Made by a program: the position numbers and the translations under genes. The notes under the pieces are model-generated. The model did no database searches. It worked only from the letters and a program-made list of their open reading frames with translations, and had not been told where the DNA came from. A stretch of DNA of 64,000 bases from the sequence record PZ445430.1. The stretch is one strand, 5' to 3'. The number at the start of each line of letters is the position of its first letter. The first letter of the stretch is position 1. The stretch comes from a phage. Of the stretch, positions 31,667 through 46,788 are shown piece by piece.

Positions 31667-34226
31667 CTAAAATCCTTTTCACATTATCCAGATCTTTACA
31701 TACAGCAATAAACTTATCATCCTTGTACTTGCTGTGGTCTGGATGCTCTTTATCCATTGCAGCTAACTTCTTATACTCGAAATCTGCATCGAGTAATACA
31801 CCTTTAACGTAACGAGTATACTCATCATCATCAATACAAGCGATTGATGGGTGCTGTTTCTTCATCTTACCACAAGAGTAGTCACGAGAACCACCTTTCT
31901 CAGAATCAGAATCAATACCGATTGGGCAGCCAGGGATACTAATACCACGATCCTTCTGGATGTTACGAATCAGAATCTCGTTATACTGATCAATCAGATC
32001 TTCACGTACAATGGCAACCACGGAGTCGTGAACCAACATGACGATCTTCATCTCTTTTCCTAGACCCAGGGACAGGATTTCTTCATCAGCATCAATAGCA
32101 CCTAACAGGAGACTGTCAGAAGATGCAGACTGAATGATTGCGTTAAATCCAGAACGGATTTCTTCACCCTGAACACCACGATCTTCAGAATGGATATTGT
32201 GCAGACGACGCTTACGACCAAAGTGACTGTAGATGAATCCAAAGTTCTTGATCTGATCGTGGCACTTATCAATCCAACGCTTAAGCTGAGGGAATTGACC
32301 GAAGTAAGTTTCGATATAGTCCTTCGCATCTGCAACGGTACATTCAACAAACGGTTCGCCTGTCTTAGCGGCCTGTTCCAGAAGAGCTTCATTAACAGAA
32401 TGAGCAACTTTAGCTGGGCCAGAACCATACAAAATACCGAAGGTAATTGCCTTAGCAGCCTGACGCAGAGCTGGGAACAGCTTCTTAACATCACGTGGCT
32501 CACAGGTCAGTTTAAATACCATGTGTGCAATGTTAGAGTGGAAGTCAGGGTATTTATCCGGCTCATTCTTCATGTTGATAAATACTTGTTGCATGTTTCT
32601 GTCACCAGACAGTACAGCAGCGTAATAAACTTCCGCAGTTGTTAAGTCCCATGCGATTACACGGTATCTAGGAGGAGCTACTACACAACCCTTGATAATA
32701 GATTCATCACGTGGTAACTGTTGCAGGTTCAGCTTACCAGAAGAACTCAGACGACCAGAAGTAGTCATGTGTTCATGGAAACCAGTACGAATGCAACCAT
32801 CTGCATCAATGCTCAGAAGAATCTTCTCAACATAAGTAGAGATCAGCTTAGTTAGCTTACGAATCTCTAGCAGAGTCTTAGCAATTGGATGCTGAGTAGC
32901 CAGTTCGTTCAGAGCTTCTGCGTTTGTAGAATCTGCACCTGTATCTGTCAGCTTACCAGTTGGAGTCAGACCAACATAATCAAACAGAAGAACACGAAGT
33001 TGCTTAACAGAGTTCGGGTTAAATGCTTCGTTCTGATCTTTCTCTAGCTGAACGACTTCTGGATAAGTATACAGCTTTTCACGAGCCTTGTTCAGGTTGT
33101 GAGTTAACTGATACTGAGCTTCTTTCAAGCGATCAACAGAAATTGGTACACCACGATCTTCAACACGTTGCAGGAATACGCAACCAGGCATCAGAACATC
33201 ATAGTATAGACTGCGAAGTTTTTCATTCTTCTCAATTTTCGGTAAGAAGAAGTTATGCAGACGCAGAGTAGCATCGGTATCTTTTGCAGCATAAGGCCAC
33301 ATAATATCAAATGGAATCAGATCATAGCTGAAATCTTCTTTCTTGATTTTATGTGCTTTGCAATAATCATCCTTGAACTTATCCAGTTCAAAGTCGTAAT
33401 CGCCCATGTCAGTATACTTCATAGCCAGAGATTTCAAGCCGTGAGTACCACGACGTTCATCGAGAACATAGTGTTGTAACATGGTATCATGAAGTCTACG
33501 CTCTTTATGTGCTTTCTCGAAGGAAAGTCCTAGATGATAGGAGTAAAAGTGCATATCAAACTTCAAGTTATGAAAAACGATCTGATGATTCTTGCTATCC
33601 AGAATTTTCTGGAGATAATGTACAGCTACTTCGGTGATACTGTCAGAGTCAATATAGACACCCTGATACTCTTGGTGAGACATAGAAACACCAAGCAGAT
33701 AACCATCACGAGCATACAGAGCCGAGGTTTCGGAGTCGAATGCGATAGGCCCGATAACCATGTTATACACCATCTTGATGTATTCTTCAGCTTCATCTGG
33801 ATCAGTAATAGGACGATAGTCACCGGCTTTTGCAATCTTCTCGCGACCATTAATAATGTCGTGAATACTTTCTACAGTTGCTTCAAAGACCGGTTTCATT
33901 TCAGGCTTAAAGTGTAGCTGAGCTGGACTGATACTTGCAATCCAGTTGGCGTAGCCACCATGCTCTACACGTTTACCAGTATAATCACCGATACCTTTCT
34001 TACCTGCGAAATACAGGAAAGGTTCAGCACCAACTAGTACCACAAAATCGTAATCGTTCGGATCGAACGGGTTATCTGGAGTTCCGATTGTAATATGCTT
34101 TTTCAGCAGACGACCAGATAACTTCTCGTTACACATATGGAATACATCAACTTCCTCACCATAGAGCTGGAAGTGTTTATCATAACGAGTGTTATTTAGA
34201 GCTTTATCAACTACTGCAATTTTCAA
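31659..34226 (-). CDS. DNA polymerase, family A, with 3'-5' exonuclease domain
   Basis: 855 aa, same length as T5 DNA polymerase; Pol A motifs (RRxhKxxxFGxxYG-like RQAAKAITFGILYG; HDS near C-terminus); apparent TTG start. Confidence 0.9.
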   Translation of the reverse strand: MKIAVVDKALNNTRYDKHFQLYGEEVDVFHMCNEKLSGRLLKKHITIGTPDNPFDPNDYDFVVLVGAEPFLYFAGKKGIGDYTGKRVEHGGYANWIASISPAQLHFKPEMKPVFEATVESIHDIINGREKIAKAGDYRPITDPDEAEEYIKMVYNMVIGPIAFDSETSALYARDGYLLGVSMSHQEYQGVYIDSDSITEVAVHYLQKILDSKNHQIVFHNLKFDMHFYSYHLGLSFEKAHKERRLHDTMLQHYVLDERRGTHGLKSLAMKYTDMGDYDFELDKFKDDYCKAHKIKKEDFSYDLIPFDIMWPYAAKDTDATLRLHNFFLPKIEKNEKLRSLYYDVLMPGCVFLQRVEDRGVPISVDRLKEAQYQLTHNLNKAREKLYTYPEVVQLEKDQNEAFNPNSVKQLRVLLFDYVGLTPTGKLTDTGADSTNAEALNELATQHPIAKTLLEIRKLTKLISTYVEKILLSIDADGCIRTGFHEHMTTSGRLSSSGKLNLQQLPRDESIIKGCVVAPPRYRVIAWDLTTAEVYYAAVLSGDRNMQQVFINMKNEPDKYPDFHSNIAHMVFKLTCEPRDVKKLFPALRQAAKAITFGILYGSGPAKVAHSVNEALLEQAAKTGEPFVECTVADAKDYIETYFGQFPQLKRWIDKCHDQIKNFGFIYSHFGRKRRLHNIHSEDRGVQGEEIRSGFNAIIQSASSDSLLLGAIDADEEILSLGLGKEMKIVMLVHDSVVAIVREDLIDQYNEILIRNIQKDRGISIPGCPIGIDSDSEKGGSRDYSCGKMKKQHPSIACIDDDEYTRYVKGVLLDADFEYKKLAAMDKEHPDHSKYKDDKFIAVCKDLDNVKRILGA

Positions 34227-36730: not shown

Positions 36731-37498
36731 TTATTCAGCAGCCGCAGCTTTTGCATCCAGTTTAGCACGCTTAGCAGCACCATCATAGTCCTTAGCAACC
36801 AGACCACGACGAGACAGCATAGATTTAACACCGCGCTCAGACTTACCAGTTTTCTCAGCGATCTCAGCAACAGCCATGTTAGCCAGATCCAGACCTTCTA
36901 ACAGATCTTCACGGGTTTTAGCACTTGAAGTTTCCTGTACCGGCATAGCAGCGATACGACCTTCGCGAAGCAGGCTCAGAGCTTTACCACGGATCTGCTT
37001 AATATTGCGACCGAAGTGAGCAGCGATAGCTTCAATAGTAGCACCAGCAACAACCTGATTAACGAAATCAGTTTCTTCATCAGGAGTGAAGGAACGAACA
37101 GCGGCAGCTTTTTCAGTTGGCTTAACAGAAGCAGTCATTTCTAGACTCAGGATCTTACCCTGTACCTGCTTAGCACCGAACTGACCACCAGCTACAGCAG
37201 CAGCGATTTCAGCGTAAGTATACTGACCAGCATGAGCGTTCAGGAAATCAACCAGTTCAGCTTCCTGCTCAGGAGTCCACGGGGATTTCTGTACTTCGTT
37301 TGCTTTCTGTACTTCGAAACCTTCTTTACGCAGCTTAGAGCCAACAGAGCGAGCGGTAACGTCTTTACCGGTCTCGGTAGCCAGTTCAGCAGCGATAGCA
37401 GCTACTTGTTCTTGAGAGATTACAGTAACACCCAGAGCAGTGGCTTTTGCTTTCAGAGACTCGGTTACACCTTCTACGTTCCAGTTCAGTTTAGACAT
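36731..37498 (-). CDS. D5-like DNA-binding protein
   Basis: 255 aa, Ala/Lys-rich with three internally repeated motifs; strongly biased codon usage; position between helicase and ligase genes. Confidence 0.55.
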   Translation of the reverse strand: MSKLNWNVEGVTESLKAKATALGVTVISQEQVAAIAAELATETGKDVTARSVGSKLRKEGFEVQKANEVQKSPWTPEQEAELVDFLNAHAGQYTYAEIAAAVAGGQFGAKQVQGKILSLEMTASVKPTEKAAAVRSFTPDEETDFVNQVVAGATIEAIAAHFGRNIKQIRGKALSLLREGRIAAMPVQETSSAKTREDLLEGLDLANMAVAEIAEKTGKSERGVKSMLSRRGLVAKDYDGAAKRAKLDAKAAAAE

Positions 37499-38273
37499 TA
37501 TTATTTTTCTCCAATAGTTCTTTAATCGACAGGATTTCTATCCCATTCGTTTCGGCTTTCTTATAAGATGAGGAAGAACGTTTTGATTCATCCTCACAGA
37601 TTAGGTATTTGACGTCTTTGGTAACGGACTTCTTAACCGTATATCCTAGACTCTCTAAATAGTTTGTTGCATCCGTTCGATTTGCAAAATCTTGCAAAGA
37701 TCCGGTAATACAGACCGTGATTCCATTTGGCTGAGCAACTAAATCATCTGTAATGATGATATCAGCTTTAGCACCTCGAATACCAGTTGAGAATTTCCAC
37801 GGTAATTCAATAACATCCTTGCCTTGCGGGGAATTTAGCCAGGTTTTGTAATTTTCTCCAGCCTTGCCGTCAGCCTTCACATCGTGGAAGCTAGTGCAAT
37901 TTTGGGACAGTTTCTTTGCTGCAACCTCTCCAATAAGAGGAATTCCTAAAGAACCGAGAACTGAACCAAAGTCAATGTCTCCGCGAACCTTAGTATTTAA
38001 CTCGCTAATCAACTTAGCGGCAACCTTGCTACCCACAGCTCCGACCAAATCTTCTTCGGTCAGGTAAAACAGTTCTGAGATTTTAGTCAGCTCCAGCTTC
38101 TCAATAGTTTTCGGGCCAAAGCCCTTTAACTTCATTTTTGTGCAGAAGTTCTCGATTAACTTACTTGATTGCGCTGGACAGTTGGACTTATTCCTACAGA
38201 ATAATTGCCCGTTGACAAGATCTAGCTTAGAACCACAAGAGGGACATTGTGTTGGAATTTCGATTTTCATCAA
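37491..38273 (-). CDS. NAD-dependent DNA ligase, C-terminal part (Zn finger, HhH, BRCT)
   Basis: N-terminal CPSCGSKL...C zinc-finger-like motif, HhH-like and BRCT-like regions; own promoter and RBS. Confidence 0.75.
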   Translation of the reverse strand: MMKIEIPTQCPSCGSKLDLVNGQLFCRNKSNCPAQSSKLIENFCTKMKLKGFGPKTIEKLELTKISELFYLTEEDLVGAVGSKVAAKLISELNTKVRGDIDFGSVLGSLGIPLIGEVAAKKLSQNCTSFHDVKADGKAGENYKTWLNSPQGKDVIELPWKFSTGIRGAKADIIITDDLVAQPNGITVCITGSLQDFANRTDATNYLESLGYTVKKSVTKDVKYLICEDESKRSSSSYKKAETNGIEILSIKELLEKNNNV

Positions 38274-41719: not shown

Positions 41720-41760
41720 AATCTATTATACAGAAAATTTTTGCAAGATGCAAATAAATT
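41720..41760 (-). promoter_or_regulatory. strong T5 early promoter closely resembling PN25
   Basis: - strand reads TTTATTTGCATCTTGCAAAAATTTTCTGTATAATAGATTCATAAATTTGAGAGAGGAG, near-identical to PN25 as I recall it. Confidence 0.7.
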
Positions 41761-42332
41761 TATAAAGAAGCTGCTTTCAGCTTGTTATACCTATAAAGAA
41801 TGGCCGGGGCGCTTTTAAATCCAAGCACTCTAGCAGTTTTTCTCCAAGAATTGGTTTTCTGATACGTAGATTCTATTAACTCTAAGGTTAGAGTATCGCC
41901 GGAGGGAATAACCACATTATATTTAAACATAGCCCTGCACCTATAAGATGCAGCCGCTTTAGTTATGCCCATACTTTCTAATTTCTTAATTTCTGCTAGG
42001 AAATCTGGATGTTCTCTCCAATTTTTATTATGAAATTTTATTGCATTAGCTTTGTAGGTTAATACCTGCAAGTTAACTAATCTAGGATCTAACTTATCAT
42101 CATTTATATGGTCTACTACCAATTCTGATTCTAATCCAGGAAGTAGCCCAAAACAATAAGCTACTAACCTATGCACCCTCACATTTATAGGAGAGCCATC
42201 CTTCATTAAATTAACTTGTAAGTACCCCGCAGTATTTTGACCCGGAGCAAGAAATTTGTTGGAGAGAAAAGAATACACCTCTCCATTTTCATTCACTGCA
42301 TAGTCAGGAAATTCGGGAATTCTTATAAACAT
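41760..42332 (-). CDS. HNH homing endonuclease
   Basis: 190 aa; HRLVAYCF...VVDHINDDKLDPRLVNLQVLTYKANAIK HNH core. Confidence 0.75.
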   Translation of the reverse strand: MFIRIPEFPDYAVNENGEVYSFLSNKFLAPGQNTAGYLQVNLMKDGSPINVRVHRLVAYCFGLLPGLESELVVDHINDDKLDPRLVNLQVLTYKANAIKFHNKNWREHPDFLAEIKKLESMGITKAAASYRCRAMFKYNVVIPSGDTLTLELIESTYQKTNSWRKTARVLGFKSAPAILYRYNKLKAASL

Positions 42333-42565
42333 TATTGTTCCTTGAGCAAAGAAGCAAGTTCAGCATAGACTTTATCTAGCTCAAAGCCAATGCGAAGGGA
42401 CACACGAGTCTTCCGTTGTTTAAGTAACCATATGGAGACATTAGGGATGCCAGCGAGACGTGGTGGTACCACTCTACATAGTTTCTCCGCAGTATCGTAA
42501 ACAGAAGTTTTACGTTCTTTTACGGGAAACTTCCTTGTTTCCCACTTTTTATTCTTCACTGTCAT
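42332..42565 (-). CDS. hypothetical small protein
   Basis: ORF overlapping 3' end of D2-like gene; start moved to internal ATG (MTVKNKK) preceded by G-rich RBS. Confidence 0.4.
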   Translation of the reverse strand: MTVKNKKWETRKFPVKERKTSVYDTAEKLCRVVPPRLAGIPNVSIWLLKQRKTRVSLRIGFELDKVYAELASLLKEQ

Positions 42566-45338
42566 TTCTAGCCCCCAATTCAGCAAGAGCTTCCTCATGC
42601 ATCTGACGTTCTTCATCTGTCATAAACTTAACTGGAATCGGCATACATTCGATCTTACAGTAAGTTCTGTACCAGTCCACAATCTTTTCCGTATCCAGAT
42701 CTTTACCAATACCCATCATGCCAAGATACATACGAGCATATTTTGGGTTAGCACTCTGACCTGTCTTAAGGAAGAAATCCTTCTTCTTATTCTTAAGAGC
42801 TTCAATAAAAGGTTTGATTGTTACGTTTGAACACTTCTTAATATCCTCCCAGAACATATCGTGCATCTTATGGAAGAATGCAGCTCTATCGTTTGGTTTA
42901 TCCTTGATATATTGTTCAACGTGTTCCACTGTTACATCTTTAATAGAATCCAGATGATAATAGCGAACCAGAAGTAACTTGGCTTCATATGCATCTGCAT
43001 GACGTGGTGCGCAGTATTCAGGAGTTGAGTGCAAAATAGCTTTGATTCGCTCTTCTGTATACTCTTTGCCTGCACCTTCGATAGTTCCCCAGCTTTCACT
43101 GAAAATATCAATAGTTGCACCTTGATCGAGAAGATAATACCGCAAAGTACTGGTATAGTTTCTAGATTCCAGCTCACGACGACGTGCGTACAGTTGTTGG
43201 GCTAACTCAATCCAACCTTCGTCAATATTATATTGCTCGGAACCCGCAGAAAATCCACTCGTAGATTTATCAATAAAATAATAAATGTTCTGAGCACCAC
43301 GGTCGCGCCTGATTGCTTGAAAACGCATGTTTGGCGCTTGGTTTGAGGTTCTAGTAATTACGAATACATTATCAAAATAGTTAAAGTCAACACCACTCGT
43401 TACAGATGGACTACATAATAAACAATCAATCTGTTGATCAATTAGCTCATTAGTTGTATAATCCAGAATACGTCGGATATCTACATCAGACGTAGAGTTT
43501 GAGTGAATTTCTTTAACTAACGCACCAGTATTACGACGTAACGCCATTCCCTTTTCATTCAGTTCATCTGGTCCACAGTCAGATACTAGGATTGACTTCT
43601 CACCCATCTCTAGAGATGTTTGAAGTGCAACCCAAATACTGGATTCATCAGGGAATTCATAAGCATGAGCTTTCGCCAGCATTTTACGGTGGTGATTATA
43701 AAATGCGACTGGTTTATCAAAATCAATCAAAGAACCATAGGCTTCAATCGTTTCTGCACTGATATCCCCATCAGATAAGATCACCGTTTTTGCAGTAATA
43801 AGAATATCACGAAGAACCTGAATACATTCACGACGGTTTTTAACAACCGGAGCGAATAACAGATCATTCATTACTGCGTCACATTCATCAATAAAGATCG
43901 TATCAATCTGACCCACAAAGCTCTTGAACTTATGTATAGAGTGAATAGTTGAAGACATACGATCAATAGCACCACGTTTGAAGTTCAGCATATCAACTGA
44001 CTTATCATACTGGCCAGCACCGAATTTCTTCGCATTAGAAGATACAAGTGCCCTAGTATTTGTGATTGCAATAAAGTTTCCTGGAAGAACACCTGCATCT
44101 AGCCACTTAGTTACTGCGGTAGTTTTACCCGTACCAAGACTTGCCTTAACAAATGTTAAATGTCCTTTTGGTGGTACAATGTTAATTTTCAGGTATGGAA
44201 CTTCTGGTGGAGAATCTGTGTCTAGACGTTTTAATGGTACACCTTTTAAGTTTGGTGGAATCTCACGTTTGGAGTTATTTACAAAGGCTTTGAGAGCCTG
44301 CTTACGACCGTTATTAAAGTAATCTTGAATATTACGACTATTATCTTTAGTCGCAATATACTCAGATAAAGCTGGTTTAATCTCACGTTCTAACCACGTA
44401 AAGTCAACACCATCTTCTAACGCTCTGTGATAAAGTTTTGGGATAATACGCAGGTACACTCCATCCTCAGCTTCTTCTAGTTCGCTGATGGTTTCTTCCA
44501 CTTTATCAGATGCAGCCTTCTTGCCTTTAATTTGGTCAAGTAAGGAGTAGAATTCTTCTTTAAACTCACCTCTAGTTGTTTCAAAGTCAACTAGGTTATT
44601 GGGTAGATTCACTTTCGAACCCTTAACATACACAAGACGTGGTTTATTCTCCGCTTTAAACGGATCGACTATACCATCATCAAATAAGGGGTCTGCAAAA
44701 TAGTGAAGCTGAACAGAAGAATAATAAGCTAAGTCAGCAATATCAAAACCATACTTTTGCTTACTACTGTCATTGATAGATGTAAATAAGAACTTTAACT
44801 GACCTTGCGTTACCTTGACATTAGATTCTAGCATTAAGTGCATTCGGATACCTGGTTTTAGGCCAGCCGAAGACGATGCATGAGCAATAAACCCTGCATC
44901 AAGAGGAAACATATCCTCACTAATACTATTCAACATCTTAATAATATGACGTGCCATGCCAACAAGATTAAACTTGTCATAGCCACCAGTATCTACAATA
45001 CCATCCACGTCCATAGCGATAATATGACTAGGATTGGATACGTTAAAGTTTCCTCTGGTACGACGCACATTATCTTTTGGAGCTAAACATTTACCACGAA
45101 TAGCTACAATATGCGGGTCTTTGGTAAGACGACGCATGATAGGTAACATTTCAGCAAGGTTTTGCGGGTCAAGTTCTTCAAGTACATCAAATTTGAAGGG
45201 CATGGAAGCTGGTTTACCTTCTGGATGCTCTTTAGAGAATCGCTTTGCAAAGGTGTAGTCTTCCACTTTGATCTCTTTCCAGATGCCAGTGGCTTTATCT
45301 CTGGAAAATCCTGCGTGACCTTGTAGGATTGAGAACAC
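42549..45338 (-). CDS. D2-like large P-loop NTPase / helicase, possibly with N-terminal primase-like domain
   Basis: Walker A ASLGTGKTT; possible primase-like acidic motif MDVDGI; start moved from track ATG 45461 to in-frame GTG about 45338 preceded by AGGAG. Confidence 0.55.
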   Translation of the reverse strand: MFSILQGHAGFSRDKATGIWKEIKVEDYTFAKRFSKEHPEGKPASMPFKFDVLEELDPQNLAEMLPIMRRLTKDPHIVAIRGKCLAPKDNVRRTRGNFNVSNPSHIIAMDVDGIVDTGGYDKFNLVGMARHIIKMLNSISEDMFPLDAGFIAHASSSAGLKPGIRMHLMLESNVKVTQGQLKFLFTSINDSSKQKYGFDIADLAYYSSVQLHYFADPLFDDGIVDPFKAENKPRLVYVKGSKVNLPNNLVDFETTRGEFKEEFYSLLDQIKGKKAASDKVEETISELEEAEDGVYLRIIPKLYHRALEDGVDFTWLEREIKPALSEYIATKDNSRNIQDYFNNGRKQALKAFVNNSKREIPPNLKGVPLKRLDTDSPPEVPYLKINIVPPKGHLTFVKASLGTGKTTAVTKWLDAGVLPGNFIAITNTRALVSSNAKKFGAGQYDKSVDMLNFKRGAIDRMSSTIHSIHKFKSFVGQIDTIFIDECDAVMNDLLFAPVVKNRRECIQVLRDILITAKTVILSDGDISAETIEAYGSLIDFDKPVAFYNHHRKMLAKAHAYEFPDESSIWVALQTSLEMGEKSILVSDCGPDELNEKGMALRRNTGALVKEIHSNSTSDVDIRRILDYTTNELIDQQIDCLLCSPSVTSGVDFNYFDNVFVITRTSNQAPNMRFQAIRRDRGAQNIYYFIDKSTSGFSAGSEQYNIDEGWIELAQQLYARRRELESRNYTSTLRYYLLDQGATIDIFSESWGTIEGAGKEYTEERIKAILHSTPEYCAPRHADAYEAKLLLVRYYHLDSIKDVTVEHVEQYIKDKPNDRAAFFHKMHDMFWEDIKKCSNVTIKPFIEALKNKKKDFFLKTGQSANPKYARMYLGMMGIGKDLDTEKIVDWYRTYCKIECMPIPVKFMTDEERQMHEEALAELGARNDSEE

Positions 45339-45829
45339 AACAATACTCCTATGTTGGTTATTCGGATATCTTTCTTTAGGACTATTCAAAAGAATAGAAC
45401 AACTATTACTACCATTTACACAAACATTAATCATCATCAAGCAGTATGAATAAGTTATCATACCTCAGTGCTGCGCTCTCTTAACTCTTATCCAGATCAG
45501 AATCTAGGTCATTGGCCGCTAAGCCGATTCTGATTGCCCTCACTATCCTATTGGTAGGTGGCTACTGGACGTGTCACCATTCGCTGCTCTTTTCGTTCGC
45601 ACCCCCATATAAAGCTCTGCCTATATAACGAGCTAAATATGCACGGTTTGGATTTACCTTTCCGAATTCAGGGTACGCAGATCACTTAATTGATAATTAA
45701 CTAACGCAGTATAAACACTAGTAATAGTTAAAACAACCCTTAATGGGGCAGCCTAACTGTTCCGTATTGCGGATTGTAAACAAGAAAAATTAGCAAAATC
45801 AATTTTTACTAATGTCTCTCAATTCAATA

Positions 45830-45870
45830 TAAATATTATATCAAGATTTTGAGCATCCTGCAAGTAAAAT
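45830..45870 (-). promoter_or_regulatory. promoter upstream of long leader of D2-like gene
   Basis: on - strand TTGCAG, 17-nt spacer, TATAAT. Confidence 0.5.
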
Positions 45871-45902
45871 TTTTCCGAAGGTGCTATCAGTGTCCTTGAG
45901 CA

Positions 45903-45931
45903 CAGAGAAAACCGAGTCATTTTGACTCGGT
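45903..45931 (-). terminator. intrinsic terminator after paralog gene
   Basis: CCGAGTC-AAAAT-GACTCGG hairpin followed by TTTTCTCT on - strand. Confidence 0.7.
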
Positions 45932-45954
45932 AATCAGGATTGAGCTAATGAAAA

Positions 45955-46350
45955 TCAATCATCATTTAGGCCTGGGACATAGATTCCAATGCGATTTAAT
46001 TGACCTTTAGCTTCTTCGAGAATATCTTCGGTGTACTCCCAAATATCATCTTCTACTTGCAAAAGATAAGGGGATTCACCAGTTTCGGGGTCACGTGTAA
46101 TGGCTAAGCCACGTGGATGGAATATAGAGAAGTTGAGGGCAACAATCAAGCCCATGCTGGACAATTCATTCCAGTCAGCTTCCCAACCATCATCTTCATC
46201 TTCGTCCACAAAGACACCTACACTAGGGTCTGTTACAGAAGTAAACGGAAATGTTACACTAACCTTGTCAACCCCCAACCAACGTGCAAGGAGCCCTTCA
46301 GCACGCTCTACCAAATTAGGATCTATCTGACGCCAAAATACTTGTTCCAT
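45955..46350 (-). CDS. hypothetical protein, paralog A of tandem pair
   Basis: 131 aa; clear similarity to adjacent 142-aa ORF (GLIVALNFSIFHPRGLAI / GLVFALNHKLFMPANHRL; C-terminal GIYVPGL / GYMIPGL). Confidence 0.6.
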   Translation of the reverse strand: MEQVFWRQIDPNLVERAEGLLARWLGVDKVSVTFPFTSVTDPSVGVFVDEDEDDGWEADWNELSSMGLIVALNFSIFHPRGLAITRDPETGESPYLLQVEDDIWEYTEDILEEAKGQLNRIGIYVPGLNDD

Positions 46351-46359
46351 TCTGCCTCC

Positions 46360-46788
46360 TTAAGCAGTTAAACCTGGGATCATATACCCGAAACGACGAA
46401 GTTTCTGAATCCCCTCATTTACTTCTTCGGGCGAATATGACCAGCCCTCACGTTCATTTACCTGGAAAGCAGGAGCTTCACCAGTGCGATAGTTTACAAT
46501 AAGACGGTGATTTGCAGGCATAAACAGCTTATGGTTCAAGGCAAAAACCAGACCCATTTCATCTAGTTCTTTCCAGTCTACAATTTCTTCTACTCTCTCA
46601 CCTAAATCCACGCTAACTCCAATACATGGAGCTTCCTCTAGTGGGCCTTTAAAGGATAGGAAGATATCGTTATTATCACACCAAATCTTAAGCAGATTGA
46701 TGGTTTCATTATACATACCATTAGGGAGAGAACGCCAGAAGTTGAGGAGCATAGGGTTTACCTCTTTCATGAAAAGATTATCGAACAT
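46360..46788 (-). CDS. hypothetical protein, paralog B of tandem pair
   Basis: 142 aa; paralogous to 45955-46350. Confidence 0.6.
   Translation of the reverse strand: MFDNLFMKEVNPMLLNFWRSLPNGMYNETINLLKIWCDNNDIFLSFKGPLEEAPCIGVSVDLGERVEEIVDWKELDEMGLVFALNHKLFMPANHRLIVNYRTGEAPAFQVNEREGWSYSPEEVNEGIQKLRRFGYMIPGLTA

What the first reader, a model, noticed from the sequence alone, without database searches (positions are those of the whole stretch)
45339..45954. Unusually long non-coding leader upstream of the D2-like gene, with strong inverted repeats
The best Shine-Dalgarno-supported start of the D2-like gene is a GTG near 45338; the track ATG at 45461 has none. Upstream there is no convincing ORF until the terminator of the preceding gene, leaving a leader of roughly 500 nt behind a promoter near 45830-45870. 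It contains a 9-bp inverted repeat (ATCAGAATC ... GATTCTGAT, around 45495-45540). Long structured leaders upstream of replication proteins can hold origins, autoregulatory operators or riboregulators.
Basis: seen in the sequence. Interest (0 to 1): 0.5.

Follow-up and report, generated by a model that had tools for sequence, protein, structure and literature searches.

The report
Conserved ornate RNA leading T5 helicase gene
The 616-base gene-free stretch in front of the replication helicase gene D2 of this T5-like phage is transcribed into a large, intricately folded RNA that is conserved across T5-like phages, matches no catalogued RNA family, and has no known function.

Summary
The window is Escherichia phage SuperGirl (Bas29, T5-like). 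D2 starts at GTG 45338: the N-terminus MFSILxGH is conserved from residue 1 in nine genera. A terminator (45931-45911) and a strong promoter (-35 45863-45858, TGnTATAAT 45843-35) leave a leader of about 490 nt with no conserved ORF.

The leader is more than spacer with a hairpin. From seven leader lineages only 40-67% identical, I derived a 5' hairpin (P0) and a core of about 325 nt, closed by a long-range helix (P2) of constant span. The core holds helices P3-P10 and is followed by hairpin P9. Across 59 hand-aligned pairs, 97% of cells pair (64% when shuffled) and 55 pairs show compensatory changes. RNAalifold on untouched MAFFT alignments recovers P3 and P7 on its own.

It presents an invariant GCUUAGCGGC mini-hairpin. 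G:U pairs favour the sense RNA over DNA.

Rfam 15 gives no match and I found no description in the literature.

The function is not shown. My best guess is a cis-acting regulatory leader of D2 mRNA. The rivals are an independent ncRNA and an origin transcript. Classical origin features (iterons, skew switch) are absent.

The parts
45905..45931 (-). Intrinsic terminator of the upstream DUF7415 gene (9-bp stem ACCGAGTCA/TGACTCGGT, then a T-run)
   Evidence: I5. The T5 record annotates a terminator at the homologous place.
45835..45875 (-). Early sigma-70 promoter: A/T-rich upstream stretch, -35 TTGCAG 45863-45858, 17-nt spacer, extended -10 TGaTATAAT 45843-45835. The inferred transcription start is near 45829.
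   Evidence: Read from the sequence. Conserved in all six genera aligned. T5 annotates a promoter here. In mar003J3 it is replaced by another promoter of the same design, placed directly before P0.
45784..45820 (-). P0: 5'-terminal hairpin of about 15 bp. The lower stem is GAGAG/UUUUC, the upper stem AUUAGUAAAA/UUUUGCUAAU. It is followed by a U-rich run.
   Evidence: helix 1: 7 of 8 pairs with changes on both sides. The upper stem has a different sequence in lineages C, D, E and G. The hairpin is absent in the Pantoea lineage.
45743..45767 (-). Most conserved primary-sequence block, AUACGGAACAGUUAGGCUGCCCCAU. It includes the small hairpin CAG-UUAGG-CUG (45759-45749).
   Evidence: single copy in the window. 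The hairpin changes to CGG/CCG in the Pantoea lineage.
45719..45729 (-). P2 5' strand (AACUAUUACUA), the long-range closing helix of the core
   Evidence: (I1): 9-14 perfect pairs in all but one lineage (5 in L066), with different sequences. The span is 301-324 nt.
45401..45411 (-). P2 3' strand (UAGUAAUAGUU)
   Evidence: Same as for the P2 5' strand.
45675..45686 (-). P3 5' strand (AGUG-AU-CUGCGU)
   Evidence: helix 3: 10 of 10 pairs with compensatory changes. RNAalifold recovers it from the raw MAFFT alignment.
45467..45476 (-). P3 3' strand (GCGCAG-CACU)
45601..45674 (-). P4 domain: P4 is ACCC (45674-45671) paired with GGGU (45604-45601). It encloses P5, AGCUC (45634-45630) paired with GAGCU (45617-45613).
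   Evidence: helices 4 and 5: 100% of cells paired, 9 of 9 pairs compensatory, including CCCG/CGGG to CCCA/UGGG within one lineage.
45491..45569 (-). Three-way junction. P10 is UCCAG (45569-45565) paired with CUGGA (45495-45491). It encloses a variable hairpin and P7.
   Evidence: helix 7. Covariance model R1 matches 45487-45573 with E = 1e-8 and finds no other copy in the window.
45496..45534 (-). It encloses the mini-hairpin GCUUAGCGGC (45524-45515), whose core CUUAGCGG is invariant.
   Evidence: I3; helix 8; RNAalifold on the raw alignment: 5 pairs, 4-8 sequences compensatory. CUUAGCGG is invariant in 14 of 14 leaders.
45444..45463 (-). P8 hairpin (GUAUGA/UCAUAC). It contains the non-functional ATG 45461.
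   Evidence: helix 9. T5 has AUAUGA/UCAUAU, a compensatory change.
45382..45397 (-). P9 hairpin (CUAUUC/GAAUAG), the last structured element. No U-run follows it.
   Evidence: helix 10: 6 of 6 pairs compensatory. No terminator is found between here and D2.
45336..45350 (-). Shine-Dalgarno AGGAG (45350-45346) and the true start GTG (45338-45336) of D2
42549..45338 (-). D2 gene (929 aa), the replication SF2 helicase annotated as 'replication origin binding protein' or primase
   Evidence: Pfam Herpes_ori_bp, residues 391-533 only; phrog_3712. PMC3632103 characterises T5 D2 as a bipolar helicase.

Best explanation
What is shown. The interval is the 5' part of the D2 transcription unit. A strong, conserved host-type early promoter fires about 490 nt upstream of the true GTG start. 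No terminator is predicted before D2. The sense transcript can fold into a conserved, multi-helix RNA. It consists of a 5'-terminal hairpin (P0), the highly conserved block AUACGGAACAGUUAGGCUGCCCC, and a core of about 325 nt closed by the long-range helix P2. The core holds P3, a P4/P5 arm, a three-way junction (P10, a variable hairpin, P7) and hairpin P8. P6, present in other lineages, is not evident in the window's lineage. A final hairpin, P9, lies outside P2 and ends 43 nt before the start codon. The helices are maintained by compensatory substitutions across lineages whose leaders are only 40-67% identical. Whole modules are swapped by recombination without loss of the architecture.

What is inferred. 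The RNA most likely acts in cis as a regulatory or structural leader of the D2 mRNA. On this reading it is a platform for a protein (D2 itself, another phage early protein or a host factor) or for a small ligand. It would set how much replication helicase is made, or how long its message lasts. P0 would serve as a 5' stabiliser or a processing site.

The existence of the structured RNA is well supported (about 0.9). The cis-regulatory role is a best guess.
For: Identity and start codon.

Promoter and terminator.

Structure. The minimum free energy of the window leader is -145 kcal/mol, z = -5.1. The hand-curated table has 10 helices, 59 pairs and 14 sequences from 7 lineages. In it, 97.3% of cells pair against 63.9% in shuffles (0 of 500 shuffles reach the observed value). 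55 of 59 pairs show changes on both sides, against 34.9 in shuffles. Slid-partner controls give 33-41% pairing. RNAalifold on untouched MAFFT alignments independently finds P3, the CAG/CUG hairpin, P7 and the mini-hairpin, and P2, P5, P6 and P8. P2 has 9-14 perfect pairs in all but one lineage (5 in L066), with different sequences, at a constant span of 301-324 nt.

RNA level and strand: 687 of 705 cells pair on the sense strand against 639 of 705 on the antisense.

Non-coding.

Linkage to D2. In the lineages compared by eye, the RNA lies on the same strand as D2 and P9 ends a few tens of nt before the start (43 nt in the window). No terminator is predicted in between. In mar003J3 a mobile endonuclease cassette replaced the promoter but left everything from P0 onward intact and supplied a new promoter.
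Against: The function was not tested.

No expression platform was found. The Shine-Dalgarno sequence and start codon sit in an A-rich, apparently open tail about 45 nt after P9. The SD-masking pairings I saw (UCCUA/UAGGA in the window, UUCUUC/GGAGAA in Sugarlandvirus) are not conserved.

In the Proteus-type relative L070, motif evidence places the RNA about 350 nt further from D2, and a perfect 12/12 sigma-70 promoter lies between them. In that phage D2 can be expressed without the leader.

The size and complexity far exceed those of known translational operators.

Thermodynamic z-scores of the core are inconsistent among homologues, from -4.3 to +0.5.

The helix table was chosen by eye, which inflates the pairing statistics to an unknown degree.
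Confidence: 0.45

Rival explanations
1. It is an independent, trans-acting non-coding RNA gene. It would work as an RNA-protein particle scaffold, a decoy for a host factor or defence system, or a base-pairing regulator. On this reading it merely sits upstream of D2 and is read through into it.
For: The size (about 400 nt), at least eleven helices and invariant loop nucleotides resemble large ornate ncRNAs more than mRNA operators. L070 has its own perfect promoter for the RNA and a second perfect promoter for D2. The Aeromonas relatives have 1.2-1.6 kb of gene-free sequence carrying the UUAGCGG loop motif twice. Near-matches to the loop sequence GCTTAGCGGC are mildly enriched in the window: 6 against 1.9 expected, reached in 1 of 100 shuffles. 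Three of them are complementary to the loop on - strand mRNAs.
Against: No terminator or obvious 3' end lies between P9 and D2 in any lineage scanned. The RNA is always co-oriented with D2, and in the lineages compared P9 ends a few tens of nt before the start (43 nt in the window). The enrichment of loop-complementary sites is borderline and was noticed after the fact.
Confidence: 0.25
2. It is the transcript of a replication origin. The strong promoter and the folded RNA would create a persistent RNA-DNA hybrid, or a primer, next to the initiator gene, as in ColE1 RNA II or the T4 oriF/oriG R-loop origins. D2 would then load there.
For: The interval lies immediately upstream of the gene for the presumed initiator helicase (PMC3632103). 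In T5 it sits at 48.4-48.9% of the genome (59.0-59.5 kb of 121.75 kb). The promoter is strong and conserved, and AT-rich stretches (26-30% GC) flank the core. ColE1 RNA II also needs a defined fold, so covariation fits this reading. The T5 origin has not been mapped at sequence level (PMC3632103, PMC10055335).
Against: There are no iterons or direct repeats. GC skew shows no switch at the locus. Recombitron strand bias in T5 pointed to dominant unidirectional replication from one genome end (PMC10055335). No conserved G-rich or C-rich hybrid-forming tract was identified. The relatives with 44% D2 identity lack the motifs.
Confidence: 0.15
3. It is a DNA-level operator or origin. The inverted repeat at 45496-45534 would be a binding site for D2 or a repressor on double-stranded DNA, which is the EMSA idea of the first reader.
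For: A perfect 9-bp inverted repeat is present. GTTCGCAC, the Box 1 of the herpesvirus origin-binding protein (PMC12543377), occurs at 45595-45602.
Against: The repeat's sequence is not conserved, only its pairing is: 7 different arm sequences, with G:U pairs. This is the signature of an RNA helix, not of a protein-recognised DNA site. The Box 1 octamer occurs at chance frequency, 2 in the window against 0.97 expected, and only in one lineage. D2 shows no match to the UL9 DNA-binding domain.
Confidence: 0.05
4. It is hidden coding sequence: either translation starts at ATG 45461 and gives a longer D2, or a small protein is encoded in the gap.
For: An in-frame ATG at 45461 opens a 970-aa ORF. 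Some GenBank records annotate peptides of 33-39 aa in the gap.
Against: The N-terminus MFSILxGH is conserved from residue 1 at GTG/ATG 45338 in nine genera. No extension or small ORF is shared between lineages, and the window has no sense ORF of 25 aa or more in the leader. ATG 45461 has no usable Shine-Dalgarno sequence and lies inside helix P8.
Confidence: 0.03

Closest known systems
Large ornate bacterial and phage ncRNAs (GOLLD, ROOL, OLE, HEARO, raiA)
   Same: It is several hundred nucleotides long, has many covarying helices and invariant loop or junction nucleotides, is phage-borne, and has no function established from sequence.
   Different: No Rfam covariance model matches it. It is fixed in the 5' leader of one gene rather than lying free or beside tRNA genes. 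It is restricted, as far as seen, to Demerecviridae.
ColE1 RNA II and the T4 oriF/oriG R-loop origins
   Same: A strong promoter drives a long non-coding transcript with a defined fold, located in the replication module.
   Different: No hybrid-forming G/C tracts, RNase H site or unwinding element could be identified, and there is no evidence that replication starts here. In ColE1 the RNA is not followed by the initiator's coding sequence.
Autogenous mRNA operators of phage replication proteins (T4 gp32 pseudoknot, gp43 hairpin, RegA sites) and long structured bacterial 5' UTRs (rne, rpoS)
   Same: It is a structured leader of a replication or housekeeping gene, co-transcribed with it, and plausibly bound by a protein to tune expression.
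   Different: The T4 operators are tens of nucleotides long and overlap the ribosome-binding site. Here the structured core is about 385 nt and ends 43 nt before the start, leaving the SD apparently free.
Riboswitches
   Same: It has covarying stems around highly conserved unpaired nucleotides in a 5' leader.
   Different: It is much larger than known aptamers. No terminator or conserved SD-sequestering expression platform is present, and no ligand is suggested by the gene context.
HSV-1 oriS with the origin-binding protein UL9
   Same: D2 shares the SF2 helicase core with UL9. The element lies next to the initiator gene and contains inverted repeats.
   Different: There are no repeated recognition boxes. 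The single Box 1 octamer is at chance level. D2 has no detectable UL9 DNA-binding domain. The conservation pattern is that of RNA pairing.

Membership tests
Any Rfam 15 family (including GOLLD, ROOL, OLE, HEARO, raiA, RNase P, tmRNA, 6S, group I/II introns, riboswitches) | A match to the family's covariance model | tested here: not met
   Window 44800-46500 searched at E <= 10 gave only two sub-threshold chance hits outside the core. Eleven homologous loci searched at E <= 1 gave nothing in the leaders.
Riboswitch | An expression platform: an intrinsic terminator, or a conserved helix that sequesters the SD or start codon in alternation with the aptamer | tested here: not met
   No terminator lies between the core and D2. 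The SD-masking pairings seen in two lineages are not conserved (read from the sequences).
Riboswitch | Specific binding of a small ligand | not testable with these tools
   This needs in-line probing or ITC.
Primer or R-loop origin (ColE1 RNA II, T4 oriF/oriG) | A promoter directing a non-coding transcript into the origin | tested here: met
   A conserved extended -10 promoter at 45863-45835.
Primer or R-loop origin (ColE1 RNA II, T4 oriF/oriG) | A persistent RNA-DNA hybrid, or initiation of DNA synthesis, at the site | not testable with these tools
   This needs DRIP-seq, marker-frequency analysis or 2D gels. GC skew is uninformative because it follows gene orientation.
Iteron or box-type origin bound by its initiator (HSV oriS/UL9, lambda ori/O) | Repeated initiator-binding boxes flanking an AT-rich spacer | tested here: not met
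   No direct-repeat family beyond chance two-copy matches. The GTTCGCAC octamer is at chance frequency.
Iteron or box-type origin bound by its initiator (HSV oriS/UL9, lambda ori/O) | An initiator with a homologous sequence-specific DNA-binding domain | tested here: not met
   The Pfam Herpes_ori_bp match covers only profile positions 48-197 of 820, the helicase core. No RVKNL motif is present in the D2 sequence.
Autogenous translational operator (T4 gp32, gp43, RegA type) | An operator that overlaps or abuts the ribosome-binding site | tested here: not met
   The last helix, P9, ends at 45382, 31 nt before the SD and 43 nt before the GTG.
Autogenous translational operator (T4 gp32, gp43, RegA type) | Binding by the encoded protein | not testable with these tools
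   This needs EMSA or RIP with D2.
Intrinsic terminator or attenuator (applied to P0) | A G+C-rich hairpin directly followed by a U-run, conserved | tested here: inconclusive
   A U-run follows P0 in lineages A, B, C and E but not in D or G. The stem is A+U-rich in the window, and the terminator scan does not call it.
Structured non-coding RNA (generic) | Helices kept by compensatory substitutions in diverged homologues, and no conserved reading frame | tested here: met
   for covariation; for the absence of a conserved ORF.

The most novel reading that the evidence does not exclude
The D2 leader is a previously undescribed class of large ornate RNA. It is about 450 nt long, with at least 11 helices and an invariant UAGC-loop mini-hairpin, and it is conserved across T5-like phages of Enterobacterales, possibly also of Aeromonas. 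On this reading it has a dedicated role in starting or licensing phage DNA replication. It could act as an origin transcript or R-loop that recruits the D2 helicase, or as an RNA partner of D2. It would not be an ordinary translational operator.
Probability: 0.2. Interest if true: 0.85.

Novelty: new variant of a known kind. Interest (0 to 1): 0.62.

Why it matters
T5 is a classic model phage, and its relatives are used in phage therapy, food safety and anti-phage defence screens. Even so, its origin of replication and the control of its replication genes remain undefined at sequence level.

A 400-450 nt RNA is kept by compensatory evolution in front of the replication helicase gene across several genera. 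No Rfam family matches it, and I found no description in the literature I could search. That gives a concrete and easily manipulated handle. It can be deleted, helix-swapped or probed in T5 or in the BASEL phage Bas29.

If it regulates D2, it is one of the largest cis-acting leaders known in a phage. If it acts in replication initiation or in trans, it would add a new functional class of large structured RNA. It could also locate the long-sought T5 origin.

Tried and rejected
(1) Rfam, at permissive thresholds on the window region and on 11 homologous loci, gave nothing. There are no tRNA or tmRNA genes in the window.

(2) A pattern scan of IMG/VR with GAACAGTNNGGCTGCNNCAT returned 120 loci. 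Ninety-one were an unrelated, highly repeated coding region or other chance matches, and no new lineages emerged.

(3) The metagenome scan with the D2 N-terminal alignment added only 11 loci. One was a new leader lineage, L213.

(4) Thermodynamic z-scores of the core are not consistently negative in homologues, ranging from -4.3 to +0.5. I do not use stability as evidence beyond the window sequence.

(5) P1 (GAACAG/UUGUUC) and a pairing of GCAAUAC with the SD-start spacer exist in lineages A, B and, for P1, D. They are absent elsewhere, so I did not count them as conserved.

(6) Covariance model R1 of the P10/P7 junction finds the close lineages (E from 1e-8 to 1e-15) and no second copy in the window. 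It does not reach the Proteus, Aeromonas, Vibrio or 44%-identity relatives, even with filters off. The RNA's presence in the Proteus and Aeromonas phages therefore rests only on motif and local-hairpin evidence.

(7) A single-sequence AlphaFold model of the D2 N-terminal domain had pLDDT 40.7 and was unusable. The profile search of PDB sequences gave no hit. Whether that domain is a primase therefore remains open.

(8) GC skew follows transcription direction only.

(9) The resemblance of GUGCGAAC to HSV OBP Box 1 is at chance level.

(10) Literature searches for a T5 or Demerecviridae ncRNA, leader or mapped origin found nothing relevant. Bourguignon et al. 1976 is not held in the library.
Full report
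IDENTITY AND CONTEXT. Window 45300-46000 is 100% identical to Escherichia phage SuperGirl (Bas29; Epseptimavirus, Demerecviridae), and more than 500 T5-like phage records hold similar DNA. All genes in this part of the window are on the - strand. The gene downstream of the finding is T5 D2, annotated as 'replication origin binding protein' or 'DNA primase'. It is a biochemically characterised bipolar SF2 helicase (PMC3632103). Its only Pfam match is to the helicase core of the herpesvirus origin-binding protein. Upstream lie two tandem DUF7415 genes.

CHECK OF THE OBSERVATION. GTG 45338 is preceded by AGGAG at a 7-nt spacing and is the deposited start in SuperGirl, T5 and Lindwurm. tblastn with the first 313 residues aligns from residue 1 down to Providencia (56% identity) and Vibrio phages (28%). 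A nine-genus alignment keeps M-F-[ST]-[IV]-L-x-G-H at the very N-terminus. ATG 45461 has no usable SD, its 41-codon extension is not conserved, and it lies inside a conserved hairpin (P8).

The interval 45339-45954 (616 nt) has no sense ORF of 25 aa or more, and no ORF is shared between lineages. The terminator is at 45931-45911. The promoter is TTGCAG, 17 nt, TGaTATAAT at 45863-45835, it is conserved across genera, and T5 annotates terminator and promoter at the homologous places. The leader is thus about 490 nt. The 9-bp inverted repeat is at 45496-45504 / 45526-45534.

THE GAP IS WIDESPREAD IN THE FAMILY. A gene-free stretch precedes D2 in T5 (617 nt), Sugarlandvirus FZ41 (598), Pectobacterium My1 (590), Providencia PSTCR5 (711), Vibrio JSF10 (about 1100) and Aeromonas TS3 (about 1590). 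It is shorter or broken by small annotated ORFs in some distant relatives (368 nt in L077).

IT IS A CONSERVED STRUCTURED RNA. Leaders from the phage records, IMG/VR and metagenomes fall into about seven lineages that are only 40-67% identical to one another:
- A: SuperGirl, T5, phiR2-01
- B: Lindwurm type
- C: My1
- E: DU_PP_V
- H: Pantoea AAS21 and L213
- D: Sugarlandvirus
- G: Providencia

Islands of sequence are conserved: the promoter, AUACGGAACAGUUnGGCUGCCCC, GAGAAGUG, and an invariant CUUAGCGG. Between the islands the sequences differ, but they can form the same helices.

From the sequences I derived the following elements.
- P0, a 5'-terminal hairpin.
- P2, a long-range closing helix. 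It has 9-14 perfect pairs in all but one lineage (5 in L066), with different sequences, and a span held to 301-324 nt.
- P2b, P3 (4 + 6 bp, about 210 nt apart in the window), P4, P5 and P6. P2b and P6 could not be placed in the window's own lineage.
- P10 and P7, which form a three-way junction with a variable hairpin.
- P8 and P9.

A table of 10 of these helices (59 pairs, 14 sequences) gives 97.4% paired cells, and 55 pairs show changes on both sides. I loaded the helix strands into the counting tool as a gapless pseudo-alignment. It gave 97.3% paired against 63.9 +/- 1.4% in shuffles (0 of 500 shuffles as high). It gave 55 pairs with compensatory changes against 34.9 in shuffles, and a covariation score of 0.767 against 0.207. 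With slid partners, pairing fell to 33-41%.

Several compensations occur between close relatives. Examples are P4 CCCG/CGGG to CCCA/UGGG within lineage B, and between WIN and T5 P3 CUGCGU/GCGCAG to CUGUGU/GCACAG, P10 UCCAG/CUGGA to UACAG/CUGUA, and P8 GUAUGA/UCAUAC to AUAUGA/UCAUAU.

Because the table was chosen by eye, I looked for support that does not depend on me. RNAalifold on untouched MAFFT alignments recovers the long-range P3, the CAG/CUG hairpin, P7 and the GCU-UAGC-GGC mini-hairpin. On a six-sequence alignment it also recovers P2, P5, P6 and P8. The unconstrained MFE of the window leader contains nearly all curated helices: -141.7 kcal/mol unconstrained against -137.8 with the helices enforced.

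STRAND AND LEVEL. There are 51 G:U cells. Pairing is 687 of 705 on the sense RNA against 639 of 705 on the antisense. Together with the conserved sense promoter, this points to a function as RNA on the D2 strand, not as a DNA cruciform or operator.

A caution: MFE z-scores of the core range from -4.3 (window) to +0.5 among homologues. Thermodynamic stability is not a consistent signal, and the case rests on covariation.

It is P7. Its arms differ in every lineage:
- AUCAGAAUC/GAUUCUGAU (WIN)
- GAUUGAGG/CCUCAAUU (phiR2-01)
- CAAAUC/GAUUUG (lineage B)
- AUACGGG/CUCGUAU (My1)
- GUGGU/ACCAC (L213)
- CACCU/AGGUG (Providencia)

What is invariant is the loop sequence GCUUAGCGGC. It probably forms a 3-bp mini-hairpin with a UAGC loop. 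My1 changes its closing G-C pair to A-U.

BOUNDARIES AND MODULARITY. In mar003J3 a homing-endonuclease cassette has replaced the terminator and promoter. Homology to the window resumes exactly at P0, and a new promoter of the same design sits in front of it. In phiR2-01 and some Tequintavirus contigs, about 100 nt are inserted right after P0, flanked by UUUUUCUU.

T5 and Lindwurm belong to the same genus but carry different central domains. SuperGirl belongs to another genus yet has the T5 type. phiR2-01 joins an A-type 5' half to a D-type junction domain. Modules are therefore exchanged by recombination within a fixed architecture.

RANGE. The Proteus-type contigs L070 and L071 have several matching features. 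They carry a perfect promoter, a long P0, a GGUUCG variant of the conserved block like that of Providencia, and CUUAGCGG in a loop closed by CCACG/CGUGG. In them the element lies about 350 nt further from D2. A second perfect 12/12 promoter sits just upstream of D2.

The Aeromonas phages have (C/U)UUAGCGG in hairpin loops twice, plus an a1-like GACGGAAC...UUAGGCUCCACCC, within 1.2-1.6 kb of gene-free DNA. Covariance model R1 of the junction finds the close lineages and only one copy in the window, but it does not reach these distant ones, so their membership is tentative. I found no motifs in the Vibrio lineages or in the relatives with 44% D2 identity. One of the latter has a divergent upstream gene and only a 368-nt spacer.

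WHAT IT IS NOT. It matches no Rfam 15 family. It is not coding. It is not an iteron-type origin: there are no repeat families and no skew switch. The HSV Box 1 octamer GTTCGCAC at 45595-45602 occurs at chance frequency and in one lineage only (PMC12543377). It is not a riboswitch with a recognisable expression platform, because no terminator is present and no SD-masking helix is conserved.

HOW IT MOST LIKELY WORKS. Shown: a promoter, a leader of about 490 nt, a conserved fold on the sense RNA, and physical continuity with D2. Inferred: the RNA acts in cis on D2 expression or message stability, probably through a bound protein or ligand, with P0 as a 5' stabiliser or processing site. I give this 0.45.

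The rivals are:
- An independent trans-acting RNA (0.25). It is favoured by the size, the invariant loops and the second promoter in L070.
- An origin transcript or R-loop of the ColE1 RNA II or T4 oriF type (0.15). It is favoured by the position next to the initiator gene, near the centre of the T5 genome, behind a strong promoter. Nothing I could test disfavours it decisively.
- A DNA operator (0.05).
- Hidden coding sequence (0.03).

NOVELTY. I found no description of this element. I searched Rfam, large-scale phage structured-RNA surveys (PMC10690425), and T5 and Demerecviridae literature. Subscription-only papers and unnamed entries in bulk catalogues cannot be excluded. It is a new RNA family of a known general kind: a large structured non-coding RNA or structured mRNA leader. 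It has unusual size and a fixed association with a replication helicase gene.

Noticed in passing
window 45955-46350 and 46360-46788 (- strand): Two tandem paralogous small genes (131 and 142 aa) lie directly upstream of the leader. Both match Pfam DUF7415. Their function is unknown, and they are syntenic in T5-like phages.
   Followed up: partly
L218 (phiR2-01) about 765-870; also L023, L025, L038: An insertion of about 100 nt sits immediately after hairpin P0, flanked on both sides by UUUUUCUU. It contains its own hairpin (UUUACGG...CCGUAAA). It may be a small mobile insertion or an optional extra domain.
   Followed up: partly
L219 (mar003J3) 365-990: A homing-endonuclease gene cassette has replaced the terminator and promoter upstream of the RNA. 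Homology to the window resumes exactly at P0, and a new promoter (TTTGCA...TAGTATAAT) is supplied.
   Followed up: yes
L070 1205-2000: The Proteus-type relative has two perfect 12/12 sigma-70 promoters. One lies before the RNA (1205-1233) and one just before D2 (1935-1964). About 300 extra nt lie between them and carry a second loop-like GCCUUAGCCG.
   Followed up: partly
L011 380-1608 and L085 560-1860 (Aeromonas phages): A gene-free stretch of 1.2-1.6 kb lies upstream of D2, with patchy conservation. UUAGCGG occurs twice in hairpin loops, and there is an a1-like GACGGAAC...UUAGGCUCCACCC. This may be an enlarged or duplicated relative of the RNA, but the junction covariance model does not detect it.
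   Followed up: partly
window 45595-45602 (+): [quoted passage not shown] There are two copies in the window against 0.97 expected, and it is present only in lineage A leaders. I judge it a coincidence.
   Followed up: yes
window 32363-32372, 36769-36778, 38012-38021 (+): There are one-mismatch matches to the invariant loop sequence GCTTAGCGGC: 6 in the window against 1.9 expected, reached in 1 of 100 shuffles. Three of them lie on the + strand, so - strand mRNAs of replication-module genes carry sequence complementary to the loop. These could be trans targets, or chance.
   Followed up: no
window 41760-42332 (- strand): A putative HNH homing endonuclease gene lies just downstream of D2, with a small ORF overlapping the D2 stop. 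T5-like genomes are peppered with such free-standing endonucleases.
   Followed up: no
loci L087-L205 (IMG/VR sample 3300045988 and others): More than 60 near-identical contigs from one metagenome match the 16-base a1 pattern by chance, inside an unrelated coding region (TCGAACAGTCTGGCTGCATCATC). This is a reminder that short-pattern scans of redundant collections inflate hit counts.
   Followed up: yes
window 45773-45802 (- strand): A second, weaker promoter-like site (TTGATT, 18 nt, TACAAT; 9/12) overlaps the 3' half of P0. It could start transcripts that lack P0. It is conserved in lineages A and B only.
   Followed up: partly
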